The notes: generated by a model not told the origin, from the letters alone. 64,000 nt of DNA from a virus (IMGVR_UViG_3300028374_000002:32001-96000); one strand, 5' to 3'; positions 26,809 through 38,140 are shown, counted from the stretch's first letter. Program-made: numbers and translations.

Positions 26809-26889
26809 TTGTGTTATAATTTTAACCTTATATATAAAAACTAAAAAATGAATTTTGACTTTTTTCACAGAATACCTAAACAAATCCAA

Positions 26890-26904
26890 ATATATATATA
26901 TATA
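26890..26904. repeat. (AT)7 microsatellite overlapping the promoter motif
   Basis: ATATATATATATATA ending 7 nt before the ATG at 26912. Confidence 0.8.
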
Positions 26905-26911
26905 CGTAAAT

Positions 26912-27238
26912 ATGATTAAAGATTTAAACGATAAGGAATTACTAGACTTTCTTATGAACTCAGACTACGAAGAAGATTTAAAACCAGAAGATTTAACTTA
27001 TTTACTCTTTAGGTTTAAATACTTCTATAGAATCTTACATGGTAGAATGGAAAACGCTAAGAGTGAGAAAGGTGCAGAACTTATGAACTTAAAAGATGAT
27101 TTAAAGTCAATAAGTAAAAAAATGATAGATGTTAAAACGGAACTAGCTGATAAAAAAAACTATATAGACCAATTTGAATCTAGAAAGCTAACACTTTCAG
27201 AGCGTTGGAAAGGTAAACTAAATATTAAAAATAGATGA
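26912..27238 (+). CDS. Coiled-coil hypothetical protein
   Basis: Start moved to MIKDLND; ATGA overlap with the next gene. Confidence 0.75.
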   Translation: MIKDLNDKELLDFLMNSDYEEDLKPEDLTYLLFRFKYFYRILHGRMENAKSEKGAELMNLKDDLKSISKKMIDVKTELADKKNYIDQFESRKLTLSERWKGKLNIKNR

Positions 27239-28341
27239 AAGTAGAAAAATTTAAAGAATTAGATCAACAGATGAATAACTATAGTTTTAATACTAGTTAT
27301 AGCAACATAAACAAAATAATGAAGGGGTTGTCATACTTTGGTAATATGACATCAATATTCCTTGCTTATTTCTTTATGTCCGATATATTATCTGGGCCAA
27401 TTGGTGATAACCAAGCACTAGTTGTTGCAGCATCGTTAATTATATTAATAGGTGTGGAACTTCTAAAAAGAGATATATTTGACAAGTTTTCCATTCAATC
27501 CCTAAAGGATAATACAATAAAAAAGACTGCCTTACCATTGGCAATATTAAGTGTATTGCTTATATTTTTATCATTTTATTCATCCTTGAGTGGTGCTAAA
27601 AAGTTTTCATTAAAGTCTGATGAAATAGAAGTTAAGACGGTGAATAAACTAGATGTTTATAGAGATAGTTTAACTACTATCTATGATACTAAGATAGGTG
27701 TTATTGAGAATAGGAATAAAATATTGTTTAATCAAAACATAAAATTTGATGAAGAAGCAGCTGAACTACCAGGTAATTATATATCTGCTAAAGAAAATAT
27801 TAGAAGTAACAAAAAGGTAAACTTAGAACAGATTAGTATAAACAAAGAAGAGATAGACGAACTCAAAGAAGAGTTTAAGACTAGGGTAGATGCAAAAAGT
27901 AATTCACTGACTAACAAATCTTCTAAAGAAAAAGAAAAGAATTCAGATAACTCTTTCCTTTTTATCATATTGTCAACATTTATAGAACTTATTATATTAG
28001 GTGGTGTCTATTTCAACCAATACTATAGATTTAGGTCTTATAAAGAATTTAGAAAAAAGATAGAAAAAGATCCAAAATATCAGAAATGGTTATTATATGA
28101 TGAGATACTATCAAATATCGTGTCTAGTGAGACTAAGATGAATGAGAAATTACCATCTAACAAATCAATAATAGACACTTGTAAAGTAAATGATATAATC
28201 ATACTACCCAAGGATATAAAGGACTTTATGAAAGTGTTATTAGGTCTTGGTATAATAAAATCTAGTGGGAGTGCTAGGTATATTATAAAAGAAAGGGAAA
28301 TGGCTAAAGAAACATTAAGAAATCATTTTAATATAAAATAA
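27235..28341 (+). CDS. Multi-pass membrane protein with a long coiled coil
   Basis: Three N-terminal hydrophobic helices, a coiled-coil loop, a fourth TM (FLFIILSTFIELIILGGVYF). Confidence 0.85.
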   Translation: MKVEKFKELDQQMNNYSFNTSYSNINKIMKGLSYFGNMTSIFLAYFFMSDILSGPIGDNQALVVAASLIILIGVELLKRDIFDKFSIQSLKDNTIKKTALPLAILSVLLIFLSFYSSLSGAKKFSLKSDEIEVKTVNKLDVYRDSLTTIYDTKIGVIENRNKILFNQNIKFDEEAAELPGNYISAKENIRSNKKVNLEQISINKEEIDELKEEFKTRVDAKSNSLTNKSSKEKEKNSDNSFLFIILSTFIELIILGGVYFNQYYRFRSYKEFRKKIEKDPKYQKWLLYDEILSNIVSSETKMNEKLPSNKSIIDTCKVNDIIILPKDIKDFMKVLLGLGIIKSSGSARYIIKEREMAKETLRNHFNIK

Positions 28342-28343
28342 TT

Positions 28344-28583
28344 ATGGTAAGATACTTTTGTGATAAATGTAAAAAAGATACTAAAGGGAATAGACTATTA
28401 ACTATCCCTATTTATAGACATATTAAAGACGACAATCCTTTAGATGGGTATTCTGTTATTAATGATGATGGTAATCTAGAACAGATTAGTGGAGTGAGTG
28501 ATGATATAGACCTTTGTATCACTTGTTATAATGTTGTGATGAAACCAATGTGGAATTCTATAAAAAATGAAATAAATGGATAA
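28344..28583 (+). CDS. Small zinc-binding protein
   Basis: YFCDKCKK ... DLCITCY. Confidence 0.7.
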   Translation: MVRYFCDKCKKDTKGNRLLTIPIYRHIKDDNPLDGYSVINDDGNLEQISGVSDDIDLCITCYNVVMKPMWNSIKNEING

Positions 28584-29388
28584 TTATATTAAGACACCTT
28601 TTAATTATACAGGTAGTAAATTTAAGATACTAAATCAGATAATACCAGAGATGGATTATAATAAGCCATACTTTTGTGACTTATTTTGTGGTGGTGGTTC
28701 TGTTTATACAAATATACTAGAACATTACGACAAAATATTAGCAAATGATATAATAGAAGATTTAATAGACATACATAAGCTTATATTAGTAGATGATAGC
28801 ATCATAGAAGATACAAAAGCATTATGTCCTGGTAAAGATAACAAAGAAGGATTTCTGTCGCTTAGAAGCTCTTATAATGAACATAAAACACCTTCTAAAT
28901 TATGGGCATTAATGCTATCATCAACAAATAATATGATGAGATTCAATAAGAAATTTCTATACAATCAAACTTATGGGAATAGGGGATGGAATCCTAACAC
29001 AGATAATAAAGTTAATGAGTTCAAAACAGAATTAAGAAAATATGGACATAAGATAAGATATACTTCTAAAAGCTTTAGTGATGTTAAAATATCATCTGAT
29101 AAAGTAATGTTATATTGTGATCCACCATATTCAAATACAGAAGCTGGTTATAATGCTTATTGGGAAAAGGATGATGACCAGAAGCTATATGAATATCTGA
29201 AAAATATAGATTCGAGTGGTTCTTCATTTATGGTTTCTGGTTCTTTAAAACATGATAATAAATCTTGCTTTTTACTAGATGAATTAATAAAGGATGGTTA
29301 TTCAGTAAAAAAGATAGAACACAATTATAACAAAGTATCTAGAAGCGGTAATAAGAAGACAGAGGAAATAATTATAATAAACTACTAG
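28576..29388 (+). CDS. dam: DNA adenine methyltransferase (Dam/D12 class)
   Basis: PFNYTGSK, DLFCGGGSV (motif I), ANDII, YCDPPY (motif IV). Confidence 0.92.
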   Translation: MDNYIKTPFNYTGSKFKILNQIIPEMDYNKPYFCDLFCGGGSVYTNILEHYDKILANDIIEDLIDIHKLILVDDSIIEDTKALCPGKDNKEGFLSLRSSYNEHKTPSKLWALMLSSTNNMMRFNKKFLYNQTYGNRGWNPNTDNKVNEFKTELRKYGHKIRYTSKSFSDVKISSDKVMLYCDPPYSNTEAGYNAYWEKDDDQKLYEYLKNIDSSGSSFMVSGSLKHDNKSCFLLDELIKDGYSVKKIEHNYNKVSRSGNKKTEEIIIINY

Positions 29389-29410
29389 GGATATATTAAA
29401 TAGTTTAATT

Positions 29411-29419
29411 TAATATATA
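29411..29419 (+). promoter_or_regulatory. Putative late promoter at the head of the LRR array
   Basis: TAATATATA 4 nt before the first ATG; no other intergenic space exists inside the array. Confidence 0.6.
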
Positions 29420-29423
29420 CTCT

Positions 29424-30155
29424 ATGAAACACATAAAATCTTACAAGATATTCGAGAGTGCTAGTCCTAACTTCCCAACTACAAGAGAGGAAGTTATAGA
29501 AGTTTGTGAAAAATATAAAATAGAAAAATATAGTATTAATGATGATTTAAGTATTGATGTTGATGGTGATGTTTATTTAGATGGTCAAAGCTTAGAATAC
29601 TTACCACTTAAATTTAATTATATAGAGGGTAGCTTTGATTGTCATTTTAATGAATTAAAATCATTAGAGGGTTGTCCAGAAAAAGTGGGTGGAACTTTTA
29701 ACTGTTCTTTTAATCAATTAAAAACATTAGAAGGTAGCCCACGAACAATAAATGGTCGTTTTAGTTGTTCTAATAATGAATTAAAAACATTAGAATTTAG
29801 CCCACAAACAGTAGGTGGTACTTTTCGTTGTATACATAATGAATTAAAGACATTAAAAGGTAGCCCACAAACAGTAGGTGGTAATTTTTCTTGTTCTCAT
29901 AATGAATTAAAAGATTTAGAACATTTCCCAGAAGTAAATAGTAGAATAGACATATTTGAAAACACAGTAAATTTATTAGTGTATACCTTTATTAAAAAAG
30001 CTGATAGCTTTATGATAGAAGACTTTGTAGATTATGAAATAGTCAGAAACAGAGATACTGTTATGCTAGATAGGCTTCAAACTTTTATAAGAGATAACGA
30101 TTTAGAAATGCCTGATTTGGAAGAAATTAAAAAAGAATATAAAATAATAGAATAG
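29424..30155 (+). CDS. LRR-like array paralogue 1 (4 internal repeats)
   Basis: MKHIKSYKIFES cap; LxxLEGxPxxVxGxFxCxxNx repeats; conserved ...YKIIE cap. Confidence 0.95.
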   Translation: MKHIKSYKIFESASPNFPTTREEVIEVCEKYKIEKYSINDDLSIDVDGDVYLDGQSLEYLPLKFNYIEGSFDCHFNELKSLEGCPEKVGGTFNCSFNQLKTLEGSPRTINGRFSCSNNELKTLEFSPQTVGGTFRCIHNELKTLKGSPQTVGGNFSCSHNELKDLEHFPEVNSRIDIFENTVNLLVYTFIKKADSFMIEDFVDYEIVRNRDTVMLDRLQTFIRDNDLEMPDLEEIKKEYKIIE

Positions 30156-30156
30156 A

Positions 30157-30888
30157 ATGAAACATATAAAACCTTATAAAATATTCGAGAATAAAAGTCC
30201 TAACTTCCCAACTACAAGAGAGGAAGTTATACAAGTGTGTGAAAAGTATGAAATAGAAAATTATACCATAAACGATGATTTAAGTATTGGTGTTGATGGT
30301 AGTGTATATTTAGAGAAGAAAAAATTAGAATACTTACCACTTAAATTTAATTATGTGAGTGGTACATTTATATGTTCTAGTAATAAATTAAAGTCATTAG
30401 AAGGTTGTCCACAAACAGTAAGTGGTAGTTTTTATTGCTTTAATAATAAACTAGAATCATTAGAAGGTAGTCCACAAACAGTAAATGGGGATTTTTATTG
30501 CTTTAATAATAATTTAAAAACATTAAAAGGGTGTCCACAAACAGTAAATGGTAATTTCAGTTGTGACAATAATGAATTAAAATCATTAAAAGGTTGCCCA
30601 CAAACAGTAAATGGTAATTTTGGCTGTAAAGATAATGAATTAAAAGACTTAGAACATTTTCCAGAAGTAAATGGTATTATAGACATAAGGGGAAATCCAG
30701 TAAATCTCTTAACATATACCTTTATCAAAAATGCTGATAGCTTTATGATAGAAGATTTTAACGACTATGAAATAGTTAGAAATAGAGATACTGTTATGTT
30801 AGATAGATTAAAAACCTTCATAGAAGGATTTGATTTAGAAATGCCTAATTTGGAAGAAATTAAAAAGCACTATAAAATAATAGAATAA
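30157..30888 (+). CDS. LRR-like array paralogue 2 (4 repeats)
   Basis: Same architecture; first 208 nt identical to paralogue 7. Confidence 0.95.
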   Translation: MKHIKPYKIFENKSPNFPTTREEVIQVCEKYEIENYTINDDLSIGVDGSVYLEKKKLEYLPLKFNYVSGTFICSSNKLKSLEGCPQTVSGSFYCFNNKLESLEGSPQTVNGDFYCFNNNLKTLKGCPQTVNGNFSCDNNELKSLKGCPQTVNGNFGCKDNELKDLEHFPEVNGIIDIRGNPVNLLTYTFIKNADSFMIEDFNDYEIVRNRDTVMLDRLKTFIEGFDLEMPNLEEIKKHYKIIE

Positions 30889-30890
30889 AC

Positions 30891-31622
30891 ATGAAACACA
30901 TAAAACCTTACAAAATATTTGAGAGTGCTGAGCCTAACTTCCCAACTACAAGAGAAGAAGTTATAAAGGTATGTAGAAGATATAAAATATATAGCTACAC
31001 TATTAATGATGATTTAAGTATTGATGTTGATGGTGATGTTGAATTATATAGTAAAAATTTAGAATACTTACCGCTTAAATTTAATTATGTAAATGGTTAT
31101 TTTAATTGTGATTATAACAACTTAAAAACATTAGAAGGGTGTCCACAAACGGTAGATGGGGTTTTTGATTGCTCTCAAAATGAATTAAAATCATTAAAAG
31201 GTTGCCCACAAACAATAGGAATGGATTTTTATTGTAGCTTTAATGAATTAGAAACACTAGAAGGTAGTCCATCAGTAGTGAATGCTAATTTTCTATGTGA
31301 TGATAATGAATTAACGACATTAAAAGGTTGTCCACAAACAGTAAGTGGTGGCTTTAACTGTAAATTTAATAAATTAACAGATTTGGAACACTTCCCAGAA
31401 GTAAATGGTATTATAGCCATAAGGGGAAATCCAGTAGATTTATTAGTACATACTTTTATCGAAACTGCTGATAGCTTTATGATCGAAGATTTTGTAGATT
31501 ATGAGATTGTTAGAAATGGTGATACTGTTATGTTAGATAGACTTCAGACCTTCATTAGGGATAACGATTTAGAAATGCCTAACTTGGAAGACATCAAAGA
31601 ACACTATAAAATAATAGAATAG
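30891..31622 (+). CDS. LRR-like array paralogue 3 (4 repeats)
   Basis: Same architecture. Confidence 0.95.
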   Translation: MKHIKPYKIFESAEPNFPTTREEVIKVCRRYKIYSYTINDDLSIDVDGDVELYSKNLEYLPLKFNYVNGYFNCDYNNLKTLEGCPQTVDGVFDCSQNELKSLKGCPQTIGMDFYCSFNELETLEGSPSVVNANFLCDDNELTTLKGCPQTVSGGFNCKFNKLTDLEHFPEVNGIIAIRGNPVDLLVHTFIETADSFMIEDFVDYEIVRNGDTVMLDRLQTFIRDNDLEMPNLEDIKEHYKIIE

Positions 31623-31623
31623 A

Positions 31624-32229
31624 ATGAAACATATAAAACCCTATAAAATATTCGAGAGTGTTAGTCATAACTTCCCAACTACAAGAGAGGAAGTTGTAAA
31701 AGTGTGTGAATATTACAAAATAGAAAATTACACTATTAATGATGATTTAAGTATTGATGTTGATGGATCTATTGGCTTATATAATAAAAATTTAGAACAC
31801 TTGCCACTTAAATTTAACTATGTAGATGGTGGTTTTCATTGTAATCGTAATAAATTAAAATCATTAGAAGGTTGTCCAAAAACAGTAAATGGTGATTTTT
31901 ATTGCTTTACTAATGAATTAGAGACATTAGAAGGTTGTCCGCAAACAGTAGGTGGTGATTTTTATTGCTTTACTAATGAATTAAAAGACTTAGAACATTT
32001 CCCAGAAGTAAATGGTAGAATAGATATAGAGGAAAATCCAGTAGATTTATTAGTACATACTTTCATTGATAATGCTGATAGCTTTATGATAGAAGATTTT
32101 AACGACTATGAAATAGTTAGAAACAGAGATACTGTTATGTTAGATAGGCTTCAAACATTTATTAGAGATAACGATTTAGAGATGCCTAATTTGGATAACA
32201 TTAAAGAACACTATAAAATAATAGAATAA
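31624..32229 (+). CDS. LRR-like array paralogue 4 (2 repeats)
   Basis: Same architecture, 201 aa. Confidence 0.95.
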   Translation: MKHIKPYKIFESVSHNFPTTREEVVKVCEYYKIENYTINDDLSIDVDGSIGLYNKNLEHLPLKFNYVDGGFHCNRNKLKSLEGCPKTVNGDFYCFTNELETLEGCPQTVGGDFYCFTNELKDLEHFPEVNGRIDIEENPVDLLVHTFIDNADSFMIEDFNDYEIVRNRDTVMLDRLQTFIRDNDLEMPNLDNIKEHYKIIE

Positions 32230-32230
32230 A

Positions 32231-32899
32231 ATGAAACATATAAAACCTTATAAAATATTCGAGAGCAATAGTCCTAAATTTCCAACTACAAGAGAGGAAG
32301 TTATACAAGTGTGTAAAAAGTATAAAATAATAGATTATACTATTAATGATGATTTAAGTATTGATGTTGATGGTGATGTTGAATTATATAGACAAAGATT
32401 AGAATATCTACCACTTAAATTTAATTATGTAAGTGGTAATTTTAATTGTTTTGTTAATAAATTAAAAACATTAGAAGGTAGTCCACAAACAGTATTTGGA
32501 TATTTTAACTGTGGTGGCAATGAATTAAAATCGTTAGAAGGTAGTCCACAAACAGTAGGTGGGCGTTTTAATTGTTATTTTAATGAGTTAGTATCATTAG
32601 AAGGTAGTCCACAAACAGTAGATGGTGATTTTGATTGTTCCTATAATGAATTAAAAGACTTAGAACATTTCCCAGAAGTAAATGGAACTATAGATATAGA
32701 AGATAATATAGTATATTGTTTAGTATATACCTTTATTAATAAAGCGGATAGCTTTATGATAGAAGATTTTATAGACTATGAAATAGTTAGAAACAGAGAT
32801 ACTGTTATGTTAGATAGGCTTCAAACTTTTATAAGAGATAACGATTTAGAAATGCCTAATCTGGAAGAAATTAAAAAAGACTATAAAATAATAGAATAA
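32231..32899 (+). CDS. LRR-like array paralogue 5 (3 repeats)
   Basis: Same architecture, 222 aa. Confidence 0.95.
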   Translation: MKHIKPYKIFESNSPKFPTTREEVIQVCKKYKIIDYTINDDLSIDVDGDVELYRQRLEYLPLKFNYVSGNFNCFVNKLKTLEGSPQTVFGYFNCGGNELKSLEGSPQTVGGRFNCYFNELVSLEGSPQTVDGDFDCSYNELKDLEHFPEVNGTIDIEDNIVYCLVYTFINKADSFMIEDFIDYEIVRNRDTVMLDRLQTFIRDNDLEMPNLEEIKKDYKIIE

Positions 32900-32901
32900 A
32901 C

Positions 32902-33951
32902 ATGAAACATATAAAACCTTATAAAATATTCGAGAATAAAAGTCCTAACTTCCCAACTACAAGGGATGAAGTTATAGAAGTGTGTAAAAGATATGGTATA
33001 GAAGACTACACTATTAATGATAATTTAAGCATTGATGTTGATGGTGATGTTGATTTAGGGAGGGTATACTTAGAATATTTACCACTTAAATTTAATTATG
33101 TGAGTGGTTATTTTGATTGTAATTATAATGAATTAAAGACATTAGAAGGTTGTCCAACAACAGTAGGGGGTAGCTTTTATTGCTATGGTAATCAATTAGA
33201 GACATTAGAAGGTTGTCCACAAACAATAGGTGGTGATTTTTATTGTAACATCAATATTTTAGAAACATTAGAAGGTTGTCCACAAACAGTAGAGGGTTAT
33301 TTTGATTGTAGCCATAATGGATTAACGTCATTAGAAGGTAGTCCACAAACAGTAACTGGGGGTTTTGGTTGTTCTAGCAATGAATTAACAACATTAAAAG
33401 GTTGTCCACAAACAGCGGGTAAGTATTTTGATTGCTCTTCTAATAAAAAATTAAAATCATTGAAGGGTTGTCCACAAAAAGTAGAGGGGGATTTTAATTG
33501 TAGTGGAAATAACTTAAAAACATTAGAAGGTGGCCCACAGACAGTGGGTGGTAATTTTCAGTGTTATTATAATAGTTTGGAAACATTAAAAGGTTGTCTA
33601 CAAACAGTAGATGGGGATTTTAATTGTCATTTTAATAAATTAGAAACACTAGAGGGTGGTCCACAAACAGTAAATGGGAATTTTCGTTGTTTTAATAATA
33701 AATTAAAAGACTTAGAACACTTCCCAGAAGTAAATGGTAGAATAGATATAAAGAAAAACACAGTAAATTTATTAGTATATACCTTTATTGAAAATGCTGA
33801 TAGTTTTATCGTAGAAGATTTTAACGACTATGAAATAGTTAGAAACAGAGATACTGTTATGTTAGATAGGCTTCAAACATTTATTAGAGATAACGATTTA
33901 GAGATGCCTAATTTGGATAACATTAAAGAACACTATAAAATAATAGAATAA
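32902..33951 (+). CDS. LRR-like array paralogue 6 (9 repeats)
   Basis: Same architecture, 349 aa. Confidence 0.95.
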   Translation: MKHIKPYKIFENKSPNFPTTRDEVIEVCKRYGIEDYTINDNLSIDVDGDVDLGRVYLEYLPLKFNYVSGYFDCNYNELKTLEGCPTTVGGSFYCYGNQLETLEGCPQTIGGDFYCNINILETLEGCPQTVEGYFDCSHNGLTSLEGSPQTVTGGFGCSSNELTTLKGCPQTAGKYFDCSSNKKLKSLKGCPQKVEGDFNCSGNNLKTLEGGPQTVGGNFQCYYNSLETLKGCLQTVDGDFNCHFNKLETLEGGPQTVNGNFRCFNNKLKDLEHFPEVNGRIDIKKNTVNLLVYTFIENADSFIVEDFNDYEIVRNRDTVMLDRLQTFIRDNDLEMPNLDNIKEHYKIIE

Positions 33952-33952
33952 A

Positions 33953-34684
33953 ATGAAACATATAAAACCTTATAAAATATTCGAGAATAAAAGTCCTAAC
34001 TTCCCAACTACAAGAGAGGAAGTTATACAAGTGTGTGAAAAGTATGAAATAGAAAATTATACCATAAACGATGATTTAAGTATTGGTGTTGATGGTAGTG
34101 TATATTTAGAGAAGAAAAAATTAGAATACTTACCACTTAAATTTAATTATGTGAGTGGTAATTTTTATTGTCATCATAATAAATTAAAATCGTTAGAAGG
34201 TAGTCCACAAACAGTAGAGGGGGATTTTAAATGTGCTTATAATAAATTAAAGACATTAGAAGATAGCCCACAAACAGTAGGTGGGCGTTTTATTTGTTAT
34301 TTTAATGAGTTAGTATCATTAGAAGGTAGTCCACAAACAGTAGATGGTGATTTTGATTGTTCCTATAATGAATTAGAAACACTAGAGGGTGGTTCACAAA
34401 CAGTAAATGGTAATTTTGATTGTTATAGTAATGAATTAAAGGACTTAGAACATTTCCCAGAAGTAAATGGAACTATAGATATGGGGGCAAATCTAGTAAA
34501 TCTATTAGTATATACTTTTATTGAAAATGCTGATATCTTTATGATAGAAGATTTTATAGATTATGAAATAGTTAGAAATAGAGATACTGTTATGTTTGAC
34601 AGATTAGAAACTTTTATAAGAGATAATGATTTAAAAATGCCTGATTTGGAAGAAATTAAAAAACACTATAAAATAATAGAATAA
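33953..34684 (+). CDS. LRR-like array paralogue 7 (4 repeats, mosaic)
   Basis: Segments identical or near-identical to paralogues 2, 10 and 5. Confidence 0.95.
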   Translation: MKHIKPYKIFENKSPNFPTTREEVIQVCEKYEIENYTINDDLSIGVDGSVYLEKKKLEYLPLKFNYVSGNFYCHHNKLKSLEGSPQTVEGDFKCAYNKLKTLEDSPQTVGGRFICYFNELVSLEGSPQTVDGDFDCSYNELETLEGGSQTVNGNFDCYSNELKDLEHFPEVNGTIDMGANLVNLLVYTFIENADIFMIEDFIDYEIVRNRDTVMFDRLETFIRDNDLKMPDLEEIKKHYKIIE

Positions 34685-34686
34685 AC

Positions 34687-35484
34687 ATGAAACATATAAA
34701 ACCTTATAAAATATTCGAGAGCAATGGGCCTAACTTTCCAACTACAAAAGAGGAGGTTATAGAAGTGTGTAAAAAGTATAAAATAATAGATTATACTATT
34801 AATGATGATTTAAGTATTGATGTTGATAGTTATGTTAGATTAGATAGTAAAAATTTAGAATACTTACCACTTAGATTTAATTATGTGAGTGGTGGATTTT
34901 CTTGTTGTAGAAATATATTAGTATCGTTAGAAGGTAGTCCACAAACAGTAGGTGGTGATTTTGACTGTCAAGGTAATGAATTAAAAACATTAGAAGGTAG
35001 TCCACAAACAGTGGGTACTAACTTTGAATGTTCTTATAATAACAAACTAGAAACATTAGAAGGTTGTCCACAAACAGTTGGTGGTTATTTTGGTTGTTCA
35101 CTTAATGAATTAAAATCATTAAAAGGTTGTCCACAAACAGTAGGTGGTGATTTTGATTGTTTTGGAAATGAATTAAAATCATTAGAAGGTTGTCCATCGG
35201 TAGTTAATGGTAATTTTAATTGTTCTTTTAATAAATTAAAAGATTTAGAACACATATCAGAAGTAAGTGGTAATATAGACATAAGACACAATGTAGTATA
35301 TTTACTGATGTATACCTTCATTGATAAAGCTGATAGCTTTATGATAGAAGATTTTATAGACTATGAAATAGTTAGAAATAGAGATACTGTTATGTTAGAT
35401 AGGCTTCAAACATTTATTAGAGATAACGATTTAGAGATGCCTAATTTGGATAACATTAAAGAACACTATAAAATAATAGAATAA
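34687..35484 (+). CDS. LRR-like array paralogue 8 (5 repeats)
   Basis: Same architecture, 265 aa. Confidence 0.95.
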   Translation: MKHIKPYKIFESNGPNFPTTKEEVIEVCKKYKIIDYTINDDLSIDVDSYVRLDSKNLEYLPLRFNYVSGGFSCCRNILVSLEGSPQTVGGDFDCQGNELKTLEGSPQTVGTNFECSYNNKLETLEGCPQTVGGYFGCSLNELKSLKGCPQTVGGDFDCFGNELKSLEGCPSVVNGNFNCSFNKLKDLEHISEVSGNIDIRHNVVYLLMYTFIDKADSFMIEDFIDYEIVRNRDTVMLDRLQTFIRDNDLEMPNLDNIKEHYKIIE

Positions 35485-35486
35485 AC

Positions 35487-36098
35487 ATGAAACATATAAA
35501 ACCTTATAAGATATTCGAGAGTGTTGGTCCTAACTTCCCAACTACAAGAAAGGAAGTTATACAAGTGTGTAATGGGTATAGAATAAAAAACTATACTATT
35601 AATGATGATTTAAGTATCGATGTTGATGGTGATGTTCATTTATATAGTAAAAATTTAGAATACTTACCACTTAGATTTAGTTATGTGAGTGGTGCATTTC
35701 TATGTTATGATAATGAATTAAAAACATTAGAAGGTTGTCCACAAACAGTAGGTAGGTCTTTTTCCTGTTCTAATAATTTTTTAGTATCGTTGAAAGGATG
35801 TCCACAAACAGTACGTGGTAGTTTTAATTGCTCTTATAATAAAATAACAGACTTAGAACACTTTCCAGAAGATAGTCAGGTCATATACATAGAAAATAAT
35901 CCAATATACAATCTAATAAATACGTTTATTTTTAAACCAAAAACTGATAGCTTTATGATAGAAGACTTTATAGATTATGAAATAGTTAGAAACAGAGATA
36001 CTGTTATGTTAGATAGACTTCAAACATTCATTAGAGATAACGATTTAGAAATGCCTGACTTAGAAGAAATTAAAAAAAAATATAAAATAATAGAATAG
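35487..36098 (+). CDS. LRR-like array paralogue 9 (2 repeats)
   Basis: Same architecture, 203 aa. Confidence 0.95.
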   Translation: MKHIKPYKIFESVGPNFPTTRKEVIQVCNGYRIKNYTINDDLSIDVDGDVHLYSKNLEYLPLRFSYVSGAFLCYDNELKTLEGCPQTVGRSFSCSNNFLVSLKGCPQTVRGSFNCSYNKITDLEHFPEDSQVIYIENNPIYNLINTFIFKPKTDSFMIEDFIDYEIVRNRDTVMLDRLQTFIRDNDLEMPDLEEIKKKYKIIE

Positions 36099-36100
36099 AC

Positions 36101-36832
36101 ATGAAACATATAAAACCTTATAAGATATTCGAAAGCAATGGTCCTAAATTTCCAACTACAAGAGAGGAAGTTATACAAGTGTGTAAAAAGTATAAAATAA
36201 TAGATTATACTATTAATGATGATTTGAGCATTGATGTTGATGGTGGTGTATATTTAAACAGAAGATACTTAGAATATTTACCACTTAAATTTAATTATGT
36301 GAGTGGTAATTTTTATTGTCATCATAATAAATTAAAATCGTTAGAAGGTAGTCCACAAACAGTAGAGGGGGATTTTAAATGTTATTTTAATAAATTAAAG
36401 ACATTAGAAGGATGTCCACAAACGATTAGTGGTAGTTTTAATTGCTCTGATAATTATTTGAAACTATTAAAAGGTTGTCCACAAACAGTAGATGGTAGCT
36501 TTGATTGTTCATATAATAAATTAATATCATTAGAGGATGGTCCACAAACAGTAGGTGGTTATTTTGAATGCGATAATAATAAATTAACTGATATGGAACA
36601 CTTCCCAGAAGTAAATGGTCCTATAATCATAGATGGGAATCCAGTAAACTCTTTAATATTTACCTTTATCAAAAACGCAGATAGTTTTCTCATAGAAGAT
36701 TTCGTAGATTATGAAATAGTTAGAAATGGCGATACTGTTATGTTAGATAGGCTTCGAACTTTAATTAATGATAATGATTTAAAAATGCCTGACTTAGAAG
36801 GTATTAAAAAGCACTATAAAATAATAGAATAA
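36101..36832 (+). CDS. LRR-like array paralogue 10 (4 repeats)
   Basis: Same architecture, 243 aa. Confidence 0.95.
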   Translation: MKHIKPYKIFESNGPKFPTTREEVIQVCKKYKIIDYTINDDLSIDVDGGVYLNRRYLEYLPLKFNYVSGNFYCHHNKLKSLEGSPQTVEGDFKCYFNKLKTLEGCPQTISGSFNCSDNYLKLLKGCPQTVDGSFDCSYNKLISLEDGPQTVGGYFECDNNKLTDMEHFPEVNGPIIIDGNPVNSLIFTFIKNADSFLIEDFVDYEIVRNGDTVMLDRLRTLINDNDLKMPDLEGIKKHYKIIE

Positions 36833-36835
36833 TGA

Positions 36836-37108
36836 TTAAATATCACTTAAATCAAAATTTGTTGTTTTTATTTTATAACAATTTGTCCAAAACTCAGTCA
36901 CAAAGTCTATAACAGTATCTGATTTAATTCTATCATTTTTATTTATCTCATTCTTTTCAGTATCACTAGAACATCTTTGGACATCAGCAATACCAGCAAA
37001 GAAGAATATATAAGCTTCTCCAATTTCTATGACATCAGTGTTTTCATAACATTCAAAATCATACTCTACATTTGAATGTCCTTCAATTTCTCTCTTAAAA
37101 TTTTTCAT
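36836..37108 (-). CDS. Hypothetical protein (90 aa)
   Basis: Start moved to MKNFKREIE (37108); -7 box upstream. Confidence 0.7.
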   Translation of the reverse strand: MKNFKREIEGHSNVEYDFECYENTDVIEIGEAYIFFFAGIADVQRCSSDTEKNEINKNDRIKSDTVIDFVTEFWTNCYKIKTTNFDLSDI

Positions 37109-37129
37109 AGTACAAATTGTTTTATAAAG

Positions 37130-37137
37130 CAAATATA
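37130..37137 (-). promoter_or_regulatory. Bacteroidota -7 box (TATATTTG)
   Basis: Exact match 21 nt upstream of 37108. Confidence 0.6.
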
Positions 37138-37198
37138 CAACATATAATATGAAAACCTAATAAATATAGATAATAATTATAAAGGGAGGTGTTTATAT

Positions 37199-37303
37199 TA
37201 ATATATACGTTAGCTGTTCACTGCTTATGTCGGATATCATTATGGTGTCTTAAAGATTTGATTAAGAATCAAAGATATAGGTTTAAAAATAAAAAGAATA
37301 ACT
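37199..37303 (+). promoter_or_regulatory. TAATATATA promoter plus a structured 5' leader of about 92 nt
   Basis: Hairpins GGAUAUCA-UUA-UGGUGUCU (pairs only with G-U wobble on the + strand) and UUUGAUU-AAG-AAUCAAA. Confidence 0.45.
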
Positions 37304-38140
37304 ATGAAAAAACAAATTTTAAATCCTAAGCCTAATGCTTGGGTCGTATCTTCTAAAGACAAAGGAAGAAAATCGATTAAAAATGGAAAAGTTTATCTAA
37401 AAAATAAAGAAAACTTTGAAATAGAATTATTTAATCCACTAAGTGAAAATATCTTAGCAGATATTAAGATAAATAAGACTTCTATTTCAGAAAATGGACT
37501 CATTGTAAAACCAGGACAAAGAGTATATTTAGACTGCTTTATTGACGACTTAAAAAAGTTTATATTTGAAACATATAATATTGAGGAATCACCAGAAGCC
37601 AAAGAAGCTATTTCTAATAATGGTGTGGTTGATGTATATTTCTATAAAGAAGAAGTGAAACAATTTAACATACCATTGAACCAATATTGGTATGGTGGAT
37701 ATCAGAAATATCCAATTACTTACCCCCATCCCTATCCTTGGTGTACATACACTACTAATACTGGAACGAGTTTTAATTTAAATAGTGGTAATTATACATT
37801 AACTAATAATAGTTCATCTAATTCAACGTTAACTAGTGATGTTCTTGGATTAGATGTAAGTAGTAGTATTGAAACTGGAAGAGTTGAAAGGGGTGATGTT
37901 TCAAATCAAAACTTTCAAAGTGTAGAAATGGATTTCGAAAGCTATTGTATATCTTCTGTTTCTATTATGCTATTACCAGAGAGTATAAAGCCTATTGAAA
38001 TAATTAAAAAGAAAGGTAAATCAAAAAATTCAGATGGTGTTATAGAATTAATAAACAAATTACATAATTTACTTGAAAGTGATGTTATAACAGAAGAAGA
38101 ATTTTCTAATAAAAAGAAAGAACTCCTCAATAGAATATAA
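37304..38140 (+). CDS. Conserved-looking phage protein with C-terminal SHOCT-like domain
   Basis: FEIELFNP...KPGQRVYL...ETGRVERG; C-terminal IELINKLHNLLESDVITEEEFSNKKKELL fits the SHOCT pattern. Confidence 0.75.
   Translation: MKKQILNPKPNAWVVSSKDKGRKSIKNGKVYLKNKENFEIELFNPLSENILADIKINKTSISENGLIVKPGQRVYLDCFIDDLKKFIFETYNIEESPEAKEAISNNGVVDVYFYKEEVKQFNIPLNQYWYGGYQKYPITYPHPYPWCTYTTNTGTSFNLNSGNYTLTNNSSSNSTLTSDVLGLDVSSSIETGRVERGDVSNQNFQSVEMDFESYCISSVSIMLLPESIKPIEIIKKKGKSKNSDGVIELINKLHNLLESDVITEEEFSNKKKELLNRI

What the first reader, a model, noticed from the sequence alone, without database searches (positions are those of the whole stretch)
30157..36382. Paralogue 7 is a chimera: exact-identity tracts show ongoing module shuffling
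Seen: 33953-34160 is identical to 30157-30364 (208 nt, paralogue 2). The overlapping tract of about 100 nt from about 34134 matches 36281-36382 (paralogue 10). The next tract of about 106 nt from about 34268 matches paralogue 5 (from about 32547) with one mismatch. Paralogues 4, 6 and 8 share the identical tail ...LEMPNLDNIKEHYKIIE, and 5 and 10 share near-identical N-caps. Inference: recent gene conversion or unequal crossover in the conserved framework generates new repeat combinations, a recombination-driven diversifier that needs no reverse transcriptase.
Basis: partly seen in the sequence, partly recalled or inferred. Interest (0 to 1): 0.78.

Follow-up and report, generated by a model that had tools for sequence, protein, structure and literature searches.

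The report
Recombining LRR gene array in phage
A giant lake phage carries ten tandem copies of a small leucine-rich-repeat gene, and copy 7 shares long letter-perfect stretches with copies 2, 10 and 5; four related phage assemblies show that ordinary homologous recombination keeps swapping gene ends, repeats and whole genes here, so the process is real and active but the mechanism is familiar.

Summary
Gene 7 (33953-34684) is identical to gene 2 over 209 nt, which is its whole N-terminal cap. It is identical to gene 10 over 105 nt and to gene 5 over 108 nt with one mismatch. Elsewhere these pairs differ at 17-20% of sites (Fisher p 9e-17 to 7e-7; GENECONV-like global p<0.0005; PHI p<=0.001).

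The proteins are 21-residue cysteine-ladder LRRs (Internalin-J, E 5e-13). Repeat positions 1, 3, 5 and 6 are hypervariable (dN/dS 1.7 against 0.2-0.4 elsewhere).

Four related assemblies share the right flank (95.5-99.3% identical) but carry different arrays. These include a gene-7 body joined to the gene-9 tail, a gene-8 body under the gene-7-type cap, a gene 10 with one extra repeat, and 3, 4 or 7 genes.

The best reading is homologous recombination between tandem paralogues, with breakpoints in conserved blocks. I found no reverse transcriptase and no A-biased changes. A RecA-family gene lies on the contig.

- Gene 7 is not shown to be the recipient.
- Much of its mosaic predates the strain splits.
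- Exchange is in register, not free cassette shuffling.
- The left flank of this contig is not syntenic with the relatives, so a chimeric join inside the array is not excluded.

This scan had already noted the LRR arrays elsewhere in this genome.

The parts
29424..36832 (+). Array of ten tandem paralogous genes, g1-g10: 29424-30155, 30157-30888, 30891-31622, 31624-32229, 32231-32899, 32902-33951, 33953-34684, 34687-35484, 35487-36098, 36101-36832. They are separated by 1-2 nt. Each has a 69-aa N-cap, 2-9 full 21-aa repeats plus an 11-aa half repeat, and a 79-aa (g9: 81-aa) C-cap.
33953..34684 (+). Gene 7 (243 aa). N-cap 33953-34159; repeats R1 34160-34222, R2 34223-34285, R3 34286-34348, R4 34349-34411; half repeat 34412-34444; C-cap 34445-34684.
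   Evidence: AlphaFold2 model, pLDDT above 90 for residues 20-140
33952..34160 (+). 209-nt tract identical to 30156-30364 (gene 2). It covers exactly the N-cap.
30156..30364 (+). Gene-2 copy of the 209-nt tract.
34130..34234 (+). 105-nt tract identical to 36278-36382 (gene 10): the last 30 nt of the cap, R1 and 12 nt of R2. It overlaps the gene-2 tract by 31 nt (34130-34160), where all three genes are identical. This is the possible crossover interval.
36278..36382 (+). Gene-10 copy of the 105-nt tract.
34268..34375 (+). 108-nt tract equal to 32546-32653 (gene 5) except at 34293. That change is non-synonymous (Ile against Asn) at hypervariable position 3 of R3. The gene-7-like gene of L052 has the gene-5 state there, giving 110 nt exact.
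32546..32653 (+). Gene-5 copy of the 108-nt tract.
33812..33986 (+). 175-nt tract identical to 32090-32264: gene-6 tail, spacer and first 34 nt of gene 7 equal gene-4 tail, spacer and first 34 nt of gene 5. The last 106 nt of genes 4, 6 and 8 are identical (32125-32230, 33847-33952, 35380-35485).
34579..34601 (+). Most conserved block of the C-cap (gene nt 627-649, the DYEIVRNRDTV region). The switch from gene-7-type body to gene-9-type tail in the relatives' genes h2/k3 lies here, in a 17-nt interval (gene nt 628-644) identical in genes 7 and 9.
35974..36175 (+). Gene-9 tail, spacer and gene-10 head. This unit recurs with 2 mismatches in 200 nt behind the gene-7-like body in L050 and L051.

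Best explanation
The ten genes are a tandem family of small cytoplasmic-type LRR proteins of the Internalin-J-like 21-residue cysteine-ladder class. They have no signal peptide and sit in a fragment of a huge lake phage. The long exact tracts are products of general homologous recombination between the paralogues. That means non-reciprocal gene conversion of patches of about 80-210 nt, and unequal crossover that fuses genes and changes the number of genes or repeats.

Exchange starts or resolves in the conserved blocks that frame the variable parts. These are gene nt 1-20, 42-72 and 178-200, the DYEIVRNRDTV block of the C-cap, the last 22 nt, and the N.L..LEG.PQTV framework of each repeat. The exchange is in register.

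The result is a set of genes in which cap, repeats and tail have separate histories. Gene 7 is one such mosaic.

Shown:
- The tracts and their statistical excess.
- Discordant cap and tail histories.
- Hybrid genes and different array contents in close relatives.
- Hypervariability confined to repeat positions 1, 3, 5 and 6.

Inferred:
- The enzyme is probably the phage's RecA-family recombinase acting on replicating concatemers.
- Selection keeps new combinations of the binding face.
- The direction of each event.
For: - Tracts and statistics.
- N-cap and C-cap distances are uncorrelated over 190 gene pairs (Spearman 0.11). Gene 8 groups with genes 5 and 10 by cap (97/93) and with genes 4 and 6 by tail (96/94). 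The cap data reject the tail clade (AU p 0.029).
- PHI p<=0.001 for whole genes and for the concatenated caps.
- The same pattern occurs in another array of the genome: C6 and C7 share an exact 207-nt cap at 87% overall identity. Other contigs show it too (L029 159 nt, L039 124 nt).
- Gene 7 against its counterpart h2/k3: 30 differences, clustered as 1 in nt 1-219, 2 at 220/223, 11 in 283-315, 0 in 316-644 and 16 in 645-732.
- The h2 tail is the gene-9 tail (81 nt exact), followed by the gene-9|gene-10 junction (2/200 mismatches).
- k2 is the gene-2/7-type cap (167 nt exact) followed by the gene-8 body, with only 5 nt of overlap at the joint.
- h3 is gene 10 (283 nt exact) plus one extra 63-nt repeat shared with h2.
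- Arrays of 3, 4 and 7 genes, and one partial array, sit before the same right flank.
- Conserved blocks coincide with breakpoints.
- LRR identity: Internalin-J 3bz5 E 5e-13. All top Foldseek matches are LRR domains.
- dN/dS is 1.73 at positions 1, 3, 5 and 6, against 0.39, 0.30 and 0.19 elsewhere.
- A RecA-family ORF scores over the Pfam cut-off at G000:133578-134336.
Against: - All sequences are short-read metagenome assemblies. The exact repeats of 105-209 nt are as long as, or longer than, reads and assembly words.
- The order of genes, and even whether genes 1-5 and 6-10 are contiguous, is unverified. Three relatives have a different left flank.
- The 3-gene haplotype (L051) holds no word that the 4-gene haplotype (L050) lacks. 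It could be a collapsed repeat.
- Topology tests are weak because the trees are star-like. The tail data do not reject a g2+g7 clade (AU p 0.27).
- No donor or recipient could be fixed for any of the three tracts in gene 7.
- Nothing shows that the recombination rate is higher here than in any other tandem repeat.
Confidence: 0.8

Rival explanations
1. Assembly artefact. The contig is a chimera of two arrays or two co-occurring strains joined through a shared exact repeat, or paralogues were threaded wrongly, so gene 7 or gene 2 does not exist as written.
For: - The left flank of this contig (Dam-like methyltransferase side) is absent from three relatives. Those relatives have a PSII_BNR gene, PhoH with an intein and a 73-aa ORF there instead.
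- Many related contigs end inside arrays.
- Logan contigs of four runs break into 120-370-nt pieces inside the array.
Against: - The gene-7 mosaic is reproduced in independent assemblies from three other samples. h2/k3 match gene 7 exactly over nt 164-219 and 316-644. The L052 gene matches over nt 86-282. Both spans cross the gene-2-tract/gene-10-tract joint.
- The outer ends of the gene-2 cap abut unique sequence with 0-1 nt of shared context. Words spanning them must therefore come from reads.
- The hybrid joints in k2 and k3 share only 5 and 17 nt, less than any usual assembly word.
- A wrong path through a repeat changes order. It does not change the existence of two bodies behind one cap.
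- Left and right flank contigs have equal depth in four runs.
Confidence: 0.08
2. Tree-like history. Genes 2 and 7 (and 7 and 10, 5 and 7) are recent duplicates, and the parts outside the tracts diverged very fast under positive selection.
For: - dN/dS is above 1 at repeat positions 1, 3, 5 and 6.
- The tail data do not reject a g2+g7 clade by topology.
Against: - Outside the tract, genes 2 and 7 differ at 19.7% of all sites. This includes the C-cap, where dN/dS is 0.19 and pS is 0.43, so synonymous sites are as diverged as in any other pair.
- One gene cannot be the youngest duplicate of three different genes in three adjoining segments.
- PHI and the fragment test reject site exchangeability.
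Confidence: 0.04
3. A dedicated, programmed diversifier: a DGR, a site-specific shufflon, or expression-site/silent-cassette conversion as in pilE/pilS or vlsE, or VLR-like assembly.
For: - Hypervariable binding face and many copies.
- Two independent cap swaps (g2/g7 and C6/C7) end at the same cap/repeat boundary.
Against: - No RVT_1 match in 201 kb. The contig is only about 28% of the genome, so this is not proof of absence.
- Substitutions involve A in 67% of cases where A is 40% of bases, not nearly 100% as in DGRs.
- All ten genes are complete ORFs with their own start codons. There are no truncated silent cassettes.
- All genes face the same way, and no inverted-repeat recombination sites were seen.
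- Tract ends fall at varied positions.
Confidence: 0.05

Closest known systems
Listeria internalin multigene family: InlJ (PDB 3bz5) for the fold class; inlH as an inlC2::inlD recombinant (PMC3977354)
   Same: - 21-residue LRR with a cysteine in place of the sixth-position leucine. It is the best solved relative by sequence (E 5e-13).
- A tandem LRR gene cluster in which a hybrid gene (5' end of one paralogue, 3' end of a neighbour) arose by recombination. h2/k3 here (gene-7 body, gene-9 tail) has the same form.
   Different: - These genes are phage-encoded and have no signal peptide, LPXTG or GW anchor.
- They are much smaller (180-349 aa) and have family-specific 69-aa and 79-aa caps that match no Pfam family.
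- There are 24 or more copies in 201 kb.
Staphylococcus aureus lpl tandem paralogue cluster (Tsuru and Kobayashi 2008, PMC2568036)
   Same: - Recombination at conserved blocks inside tandem paralogues shuffles the 5' and 3' variable parts of an ORF.
- The unit of 3' region, spacer and 5' region of the next ORF stays together. Here the gene-9 tail|gene-10 head unit recurs behind another body with 2/200 mismatches.
- Strains differ in gene number.
   Different: - Different protein family and a bacterial chromosome island.
- Here there are several conserved blocks plus an internal repeat framework, so repeat number also changes.
Plant NLR / R-gene clusters, e.g. RPP8 (PMC6771003)
   Same: Tandem LRR genes with positive selection on solvent-exposed LRR positions. 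Intergenic exchange and unequal crossover create new alleles and copy-number variation.
   Different: Those are host immune receptors with NB-ARC signalling domains in diploid eukaryotes undergoing meiotic recombination. Here the family belongs to the virus, and the proteins are bare LRR modules.
Diversity-generating retroelements of phages (BPP-1 Mtd type; own knowledge)
   Same: They are a phage-borne way to vary a binding surface.
   Different: A DGR needs a reverse transcriptase, a template repeat and adenine-specific mutagenesis. None was found here.
Poxvirus 'genomic accordions' and lineage-specific gene expansions of large viruses; Bacillus phage G has about 35 copies of a zinc ribbon (PMC7824862)
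   Same: Recombination-driven expansion and contraction of tandem gene copies in a large viral genome.
   Different: Accordions amplify near-identical copies transiently. Here the copies are old (about 80% identity) and mosaic. PMC7824862 does not mention LRR expansions.

Membership tests
LRR proteins, Internalin-J-like 21-residue cysteine-ladder class | Tandem 21-residue repeats with the L..L.C..N.L core | tested here: met
   Consensus of 70 full units is xFxCxxNxLx[TS]L[EK]G[SC]PQTVxG. F2, C4, N7 and L12 are invariant.
LRR proteins, Internalin-J-like 21-residue cysteine-ladder class | Significant sequence similarity to a solved member | tested here: met
   phmmer of gene 6 against PDB: 3bz5_A Internalin-J, E 5e-13, over 156 residues. 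IpaH LRR domains follow at 1e-3.
LRR proteins, Internalin-J-like 21-residue cysteine-ladder class | Curved solenoid fold with one short beta strand per repeat | tested here: inconclusive
   The AlphaFold2 model has pLDDT above 90 for residues 20-140 and paired short strands every 21 residues. All top Foldseek PDB matches are LRR domains (IpaH, SspH1, YopM, VLR), but none reaches E<=0.001 and TM is 0.3-0.4.
LRR proteins, Internalin-J-like 21-residue cysteine-ladder class | Match to a curated LRR profile | tested here: not met
   Pfam LRR_4 reaches only E 0.024, 15 bits against a cut-off of 27. No family passes its threshold. PHROG 7816, of unknown function, matches at 1e-10.
Multigene family evolving by gene conversion and unequal crossover | Identity tracts longer than site permutation allows | tested here: met
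   GENECONV-like test: g2-g7 and g7-g10 global p<0.0005; g4-g6 p 0.012. Fisher p 9e-17 to 7e-7.
Multigene family evolving by gene conversion and unequal crossover | Excess of incompatible neighbouring sites, and discordant segment histories | tested here: met
   PHI p<=0.001. Cap and tail distances are uncorrelated. Gene 8 changes clade between cap and tail. Single-clade AU tests are mostly weak (p 0.03-0.39).
Multigene family evolving by gene conversion and unequal crossover | Hybrid genes and changes in copy or repeat number between close relatives | tested here: met
   The hybrids are h2/k3, k2 and h3. Arrays of 3, 4, 7 and 10 genes sit before right flanks 95.5-99.3% identical. Caveat: these are short-read assemblies.
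Diversity-generating retroelement | Reverse transcriptase near the variable gene | tested here: not met
   No RVT_1 match in the 201-kb contig. The contig is about 28% of the genome.
Diversity-generating retroelement | Differences restricted to adenines of a template repeat | tested here: not met
   67% of mismatches involve A, and A is 40% of bases. All six mismatch classes occur.
Expression-site / silent-cassette antigenic variation (pilE/pilS, vlsE) or VLR-type assembly | One expressed gene plus promoterless, truncated donor cassettes | tested here: not met
   All ten genes are complete ORFs from ATG to stop with both caps. Expression itself was not tested.

The most novel reading that the evidence does not exclude
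The arrays are a virus-side counterpart of plant R-gene clusters: a heritable repertoire of intracellular or injected LRR binders. New specificities would be made on ecological time scales by recombination at built-in conserved blocks, so that co-occurring, otherwise near-identical phages each carry a different binder set. That would make array turnover a main axis of host-range or counter-defence evolution in huge phages.
Probability: 0.25. Interest if true: 0.75.

Novelty: new member of a known kind. Interest (0 to 1): 0.45.

Why it matters
Huge phages devote much DNA to genes of unknown role. This one spends about 9% of a 201-kb fragment on one LRR family.

Flanks that are 99.3% identical can carry arrays with different genes, hybrids and orders. 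The family is therefore the fastest-changing part of these genomes, which points to an arms-race function such as target binding in the host.

The mechanism itself is textbook and is known from internalins, S. aureus lpl genes and plant NLR clusters. The value lies in three things:
- It documents this mechanism in a phage.
- It gives concrete hybrid joints that can be followed in time series.
- It warns that short-read contigs through such arrays may be mis-ordered.

Tried and rejected
- Logan contigs of four runs laid on 29000-37400 are cut into 120-370-nt pieces inside the array. The 31-nt three-way identity at 34130-34160 equals their word length. They can neither confirm nor refute the joints. 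The listed 'joints' have sides under 31 nt and were ignored.
- Exact-protein look-ups of gene 7 and gene 2 found nothing.
- Relatives fetched through the neighbouring methyltransferase are at most 59% identical and have no adjacent array.
- A 3SEQ-like excursion statistic was unsuited. Gene 5 is out of register beyond nt 430, and the g2/g10 pair gave p 0.40 despite runs of 28 and then 22 informative sites. I replaced it with the fragment test.
- AU tests of single clades on 207-273-nt segments were mostly uninformative.
- Pfam gave no family. Foldseek gave no match at E<=0.001.
- The record behind L052 could not be opened through the genome search. Its contig was reached through the look-up of encoding contigs instead.
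- I first read L051/L050 as a simple 1414-nt deletion of our g7-g9 interval. The gene order in L055 (g9-like, g8-like, g7-like, g10-like) shows the history is not that simple. Only the hybrid joint itself is claimed.
- Papers on phage LRR arrays were sought without success.


Full report
**Setting**

The window is bases 32001-96000 of a 201,264-bp IMG/VR virus contig that CheckV rates about 28% complete. It is therefore a fragment of a very large phage. Public runs that hold it are lake-water and salt-lake metagenomes.

Between 29424 and 36832 lie ten same-strand ORFs separated by 1-2 nt. Each has:
- a 69-aa N-cap (MKHIKPYKIFE...);
- two to nine full 21-aa repeats plus an 11-aa half repeat;
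- a 79-aa C-cap ending in YKIIE.

The contig holds at least 24 complete members, in three arrays plus two divergent singletons.

**The observation**

- 30156-30364 = 33952-34160 (209 nt).
- 34130-34234 = 36278-36382 (105 nt).
- 32546-32653 against 34268-34375 (108 nt, one mismatch at 34293).
- An identical 106-nt tail in genes 4, 6 and 8.

In addition, a 175-nt identity runs from the tail of genes 4 and 6 across the stop into the next gene.

Along gene 7 the best exact match changes as follows:
- gene 2 for nt 1-208;
- gene 10 for nt 178-282;
- gene 5 for nt 316-423;
- no match over 41 nt after that.

The gene-2 tract is exactly the N-cap. The gene-2 and gene-10 tracts overlap in 31 nt where all three genes agree.

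**Is it more than chance or constraint?**

Other gene pairs are 79-91% identical in the cap and 76-95% in the tail (g9, whose C-cap is 2 aa longer, is left out). Outside the tracts the same pairs differ at 17-20% of sites.

| Pair | Differences inside tract | Differences outside | Fisher p |
|---|---|---|---|
| g2/g7 | 0/208 | 103/524 | 8.7e-17 |
| g7/g10 | 0/105 | 126/627 | 6.7e-10 |
| g5/g7 | 1/108 | 56/322 | 7.2e-7 |

- I wrote a GENECONV-like test that takes the longest run of concordant polymorphic sites and compares it with 2000 permutations of site order. It gives global p<0.0005 for g2-g7 and g7-g10 among the seven 732-nt genes.
- PHI is significant for whole genes and for the concatenated caps (p<=0.001), and for the N-cap alone (0.002) and the C-cap alone (0.023).
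- Cap and tail distances are uncorrelated over 190 pairs (rho 0.11).
- Gene 8 sits with genes 5 and 10 by cap and with genes 4 and 6 by tail, both well supported. The cap data reject the tail clade (AU 0.029).
- Other single-clade AU tests are weak because the trees are star-like.
- Fast divergence after duplication does not fit. Synonymous divergence in the C-cap is as high as anywhere (pS 0.43, dN/dS 0.19).

**What the proteins are**

No Pfam family passes its threshold. Gene 6 matches Internalin-J (3bz5) at E 5e-13 and IpaH LRR domains at about 1e-3.

An AlphaFold2 model of gene 7 is confident for residues 20-140, with paired short strands every 21 residues. The C-cap is helical and poorly predicted. 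All top Foldseek matches are LRR domains, although none reaches E 0.001.

The repeat consensus is xFxCxxNxLx[TS]L[EK]G[SC]PQTVxG. Positions 1, 3, 5 and 6 carry 2.9-3.5 bits of entropy and have dN/dS 1.73. The other repeat codons have 0.39, the N-cap 0.30 and the C-cap 0.19 (Nei-Gojobori, near saturation, so the values are approximate). By the standard LRR register these four positions are the exposed residues of the concave strand. That placement is an inference from established LRR knowledge.

**Relatives**

Only the right flank has close relatives. Four assemblies from other samples share it.

| Assembly | Sample | Right-flank identity to the window |
|---|---|---|
| L026 = L051 | 3300028376 | 95.6% |
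| L050 | 3300023049 | 95.5% |
| L052 = L055 | 3300031339 | 99.3% |
| L053 (short contig) | not recorded | 97.2% |

Over the first 900 nt of the flank (global alignment) L050 is 97.4% and L053 99.3% identical to the window. Their arrays differ from ours and from each other.

L051 has three genes, h1-h3.
- h2 differs from gene 7 at 30 sites, in clusters: 1 in nt 1-219, 2 at 220/223, 11 in 283-315, none in 316-644 and 16 in 645-732.
- Its last 81 nt are the gene-9 tail.
- The following spacer and gene head are the gene-9|gene-10 junction (2 mismatches in 200 nt, against 20-22 for other junctions).
- The switch lies in a 17-nt interval identical in genes 7 and 9, inside the most conserved C-cap block.
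- h3 is gene 10 (283 nt exact) with one extra 63-nt repeat, copied in register from h2.
- h1 is a gene-6-like mosaic with two fewer repeats and 119 mismatches, mostly outside nt 440-810.

L050 equals L051 (7 mismatches in 11.9 kb) but has one more gene, k2, between k1 and k3.
- k2 is the gene-2/7-type cap (167 nt exact) on a gene-8 body.
- It has 28 differences from gene 8 in nt 1-162 and 18 in the remaining 630 nt.

L055 has seven genes: a gene-6-like gene, two unrelated members, then gene-9-like, gene-8-like (again under the gene-7-type cap), gene-7-like and gene-10-like.
- Its gene-7-like gene matches gene 7 exactly over nt 86-282.
- It matches gene 5 exactly over 110 nt, including the site that differs in our gene 7.

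**What this means for gene 7**

- The joint between the gene-2-type cap and the gene-10-type repeat 1 is present in gene-7-like genes of three other assemblies, and so are the gene-5-type repeats 3-4. These features are real and older than the splits between these strains.
- The cap type occurs on gene-7-like bodies in all four arrays that hold such a gene, and fully in three of them. Gene 2 is therefore at least as likely the recipient as the donor.
- Gene 7 and gene 10 are identical at 220/223, where h2 differs. This fits either a later gene-10-to-gene-7 conversion or two changes at hypervariable codons in h2.
- I cannot fix the direction of any of the three tracts.

**Module shuffling?**

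- Tract ends fall at repeat phases 1, 13, 46 and 28, so they are not module borders.
- Of 77 full repeat units in 24 genes only 7 pairs are within 3 mismatches, and all 7 are at the same ordinal position. Within this genome exchange is in register.
- Out-of-register exchange is seen only as gain or loss of repeats (h3, h1, C1/C11).
- Ends do cluster at conserved blocks (gene nt 1-20, 42-72, 178-200, about 610-650 and the last 22 nt).
- Two independent cap swaps (g2/g7 and C6/C7) both stop at the first hypervariable codon.
- An exact tract must run through any block without differences, so I did not attempt a formal enrichment test.

**Mechanism**

- There is no RVT_1 match on the contig. Mismatches are not adenine-specific.
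- All ten genes are complete, so there are no silent cassettes.
- A RecA-family ORF is present at G000:133578-134336.
- General homologous recombination during phage replication is the simplest cause. That attribution is an inference.

**Caveats**

- All data are short-read assemblies.
- Three relatives share a left flank (a 1700-aa PSII_BNR protein, PhoH with a LAGLIDADG intein and a 73-aa ORF) that is absent from our 201 kb. Our left flank (methyltransferase side) is absent from the one relative record that could be searched whole (G001, the contig of L026/L051).
- Either the array is a real rearrangement point, or one assembly, possibly ours, is joined wrongly inside the array.
- Left and right flank contigs have equal depth in four runs. 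That fits one genome but does not prove adjacency.
- L051 may be a collapsed version of L050.
- The hybrid joints in k2 and k3 share only 5 and 17 nt with their 'parents' and recur in two or three assemblies, so they are not graph artefacts.

**Known parallels**

- inlH of Listeria EGD-e is an inlC2::inlD recombinant (PMC3977354).
- The S. aureus lpl cluster recombines at a conserved block and keeps a tail-spacer-head unit (PMC2568036).
- Plant NLR clusters such as RPP8 show the same kind of intergenic exchange (PMC6771003).
- I found no paper describing LRR arrays in phages. A survey of jumbo phages does not mention them.
- Earlier notes of this scan on other windows of this genome had already described the arrays as recombining LRR repertoires. 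I re-tested the Internalin-J match, the selection signal and the differences between near-identical phages.

**Verdict**

Recombination is the cause and it is still active. The mechanism is conventional, and the specific claims about gene 7 as the recipient and about cassette-like shuffling are not upheld.

Noticed in passing
window 26855-29388 against L050:1-4276, L051:1-5073, L055:1-7361: The array is a synteny break. Our left flank is 127-aa, 368-aa and 79-aa ORFs plus a Dam-like methyltransferase. Three relatives with 95.5-99.3% identical right flanks instead have a 1700-aa PSII_BNR protein, PhoH interrupted by a LAGLIDADG intein, and a 73-aa ORF. PhoH is absent from the whole 201-kb contig.
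   Followed up: partly
G000:C1:187333-188682 (outside the window): Adjacent genes C6 and C7 of another array share an exact 207-nt N-cap at 87% overall identity. This is the same pattern as genes 2 and 7, with the same end point at the first hypervariable codon.
   Followed up: partly
window 35487-36098 and G000:C1:191717-192328; L052:2632-3243: Gene 9 and gene C12, about 124 kb apart in different arrays, are 94.8% identical. The relative's m4 matches C12 over exact tracts of 210 and 208 nt. This suggests exchange or recent copying between arrays.
   Followed up: no
L044 (IMGVR_UViG_3300020045_008999, 597-kb contig), L047, L031: More distant huge-phage contigs carry arrays of 12-15 genes of the same family (37-50% identity to gene 7). 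The family is therefore widespread in this phage group.
   Followed up: no
G000:C1:133578-134336 (-): A RecA-family ORF of 415 aa (Pfam RecA, 57.7 bits, over the cut-off). It is a candidate for the phage's own strand-exchange protein.
   Followed up: no
window 30495-30728, 31229-31420, 35085-35321 (-): Antisense ORFs of 63-78 aa inside the array repeat with the 63-nt period (…CGQPFN…). They are most likely by-products of the repeat, not genes.
   Followed up: no
window 34293: The only mismatch in the gene-5/gene-7 tract is non-synonymous (Asn/Ile) at hypervariable position 3 of repeat 3. The relative L052 keeps the gene-5 state. This is a point change on the binding face inside an otherwise identical tract.
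   Followed up: partly
window 37304-38140 and L026:9995-10861: The first right-flank gene (278 aa, with a C-terminal SHOCT-like peptide) is 288 aa in the relatives. The difference is a 10-residue insertion in a Ser/Thr/Asn-rich low-complexity stretch.
   Followed up: no
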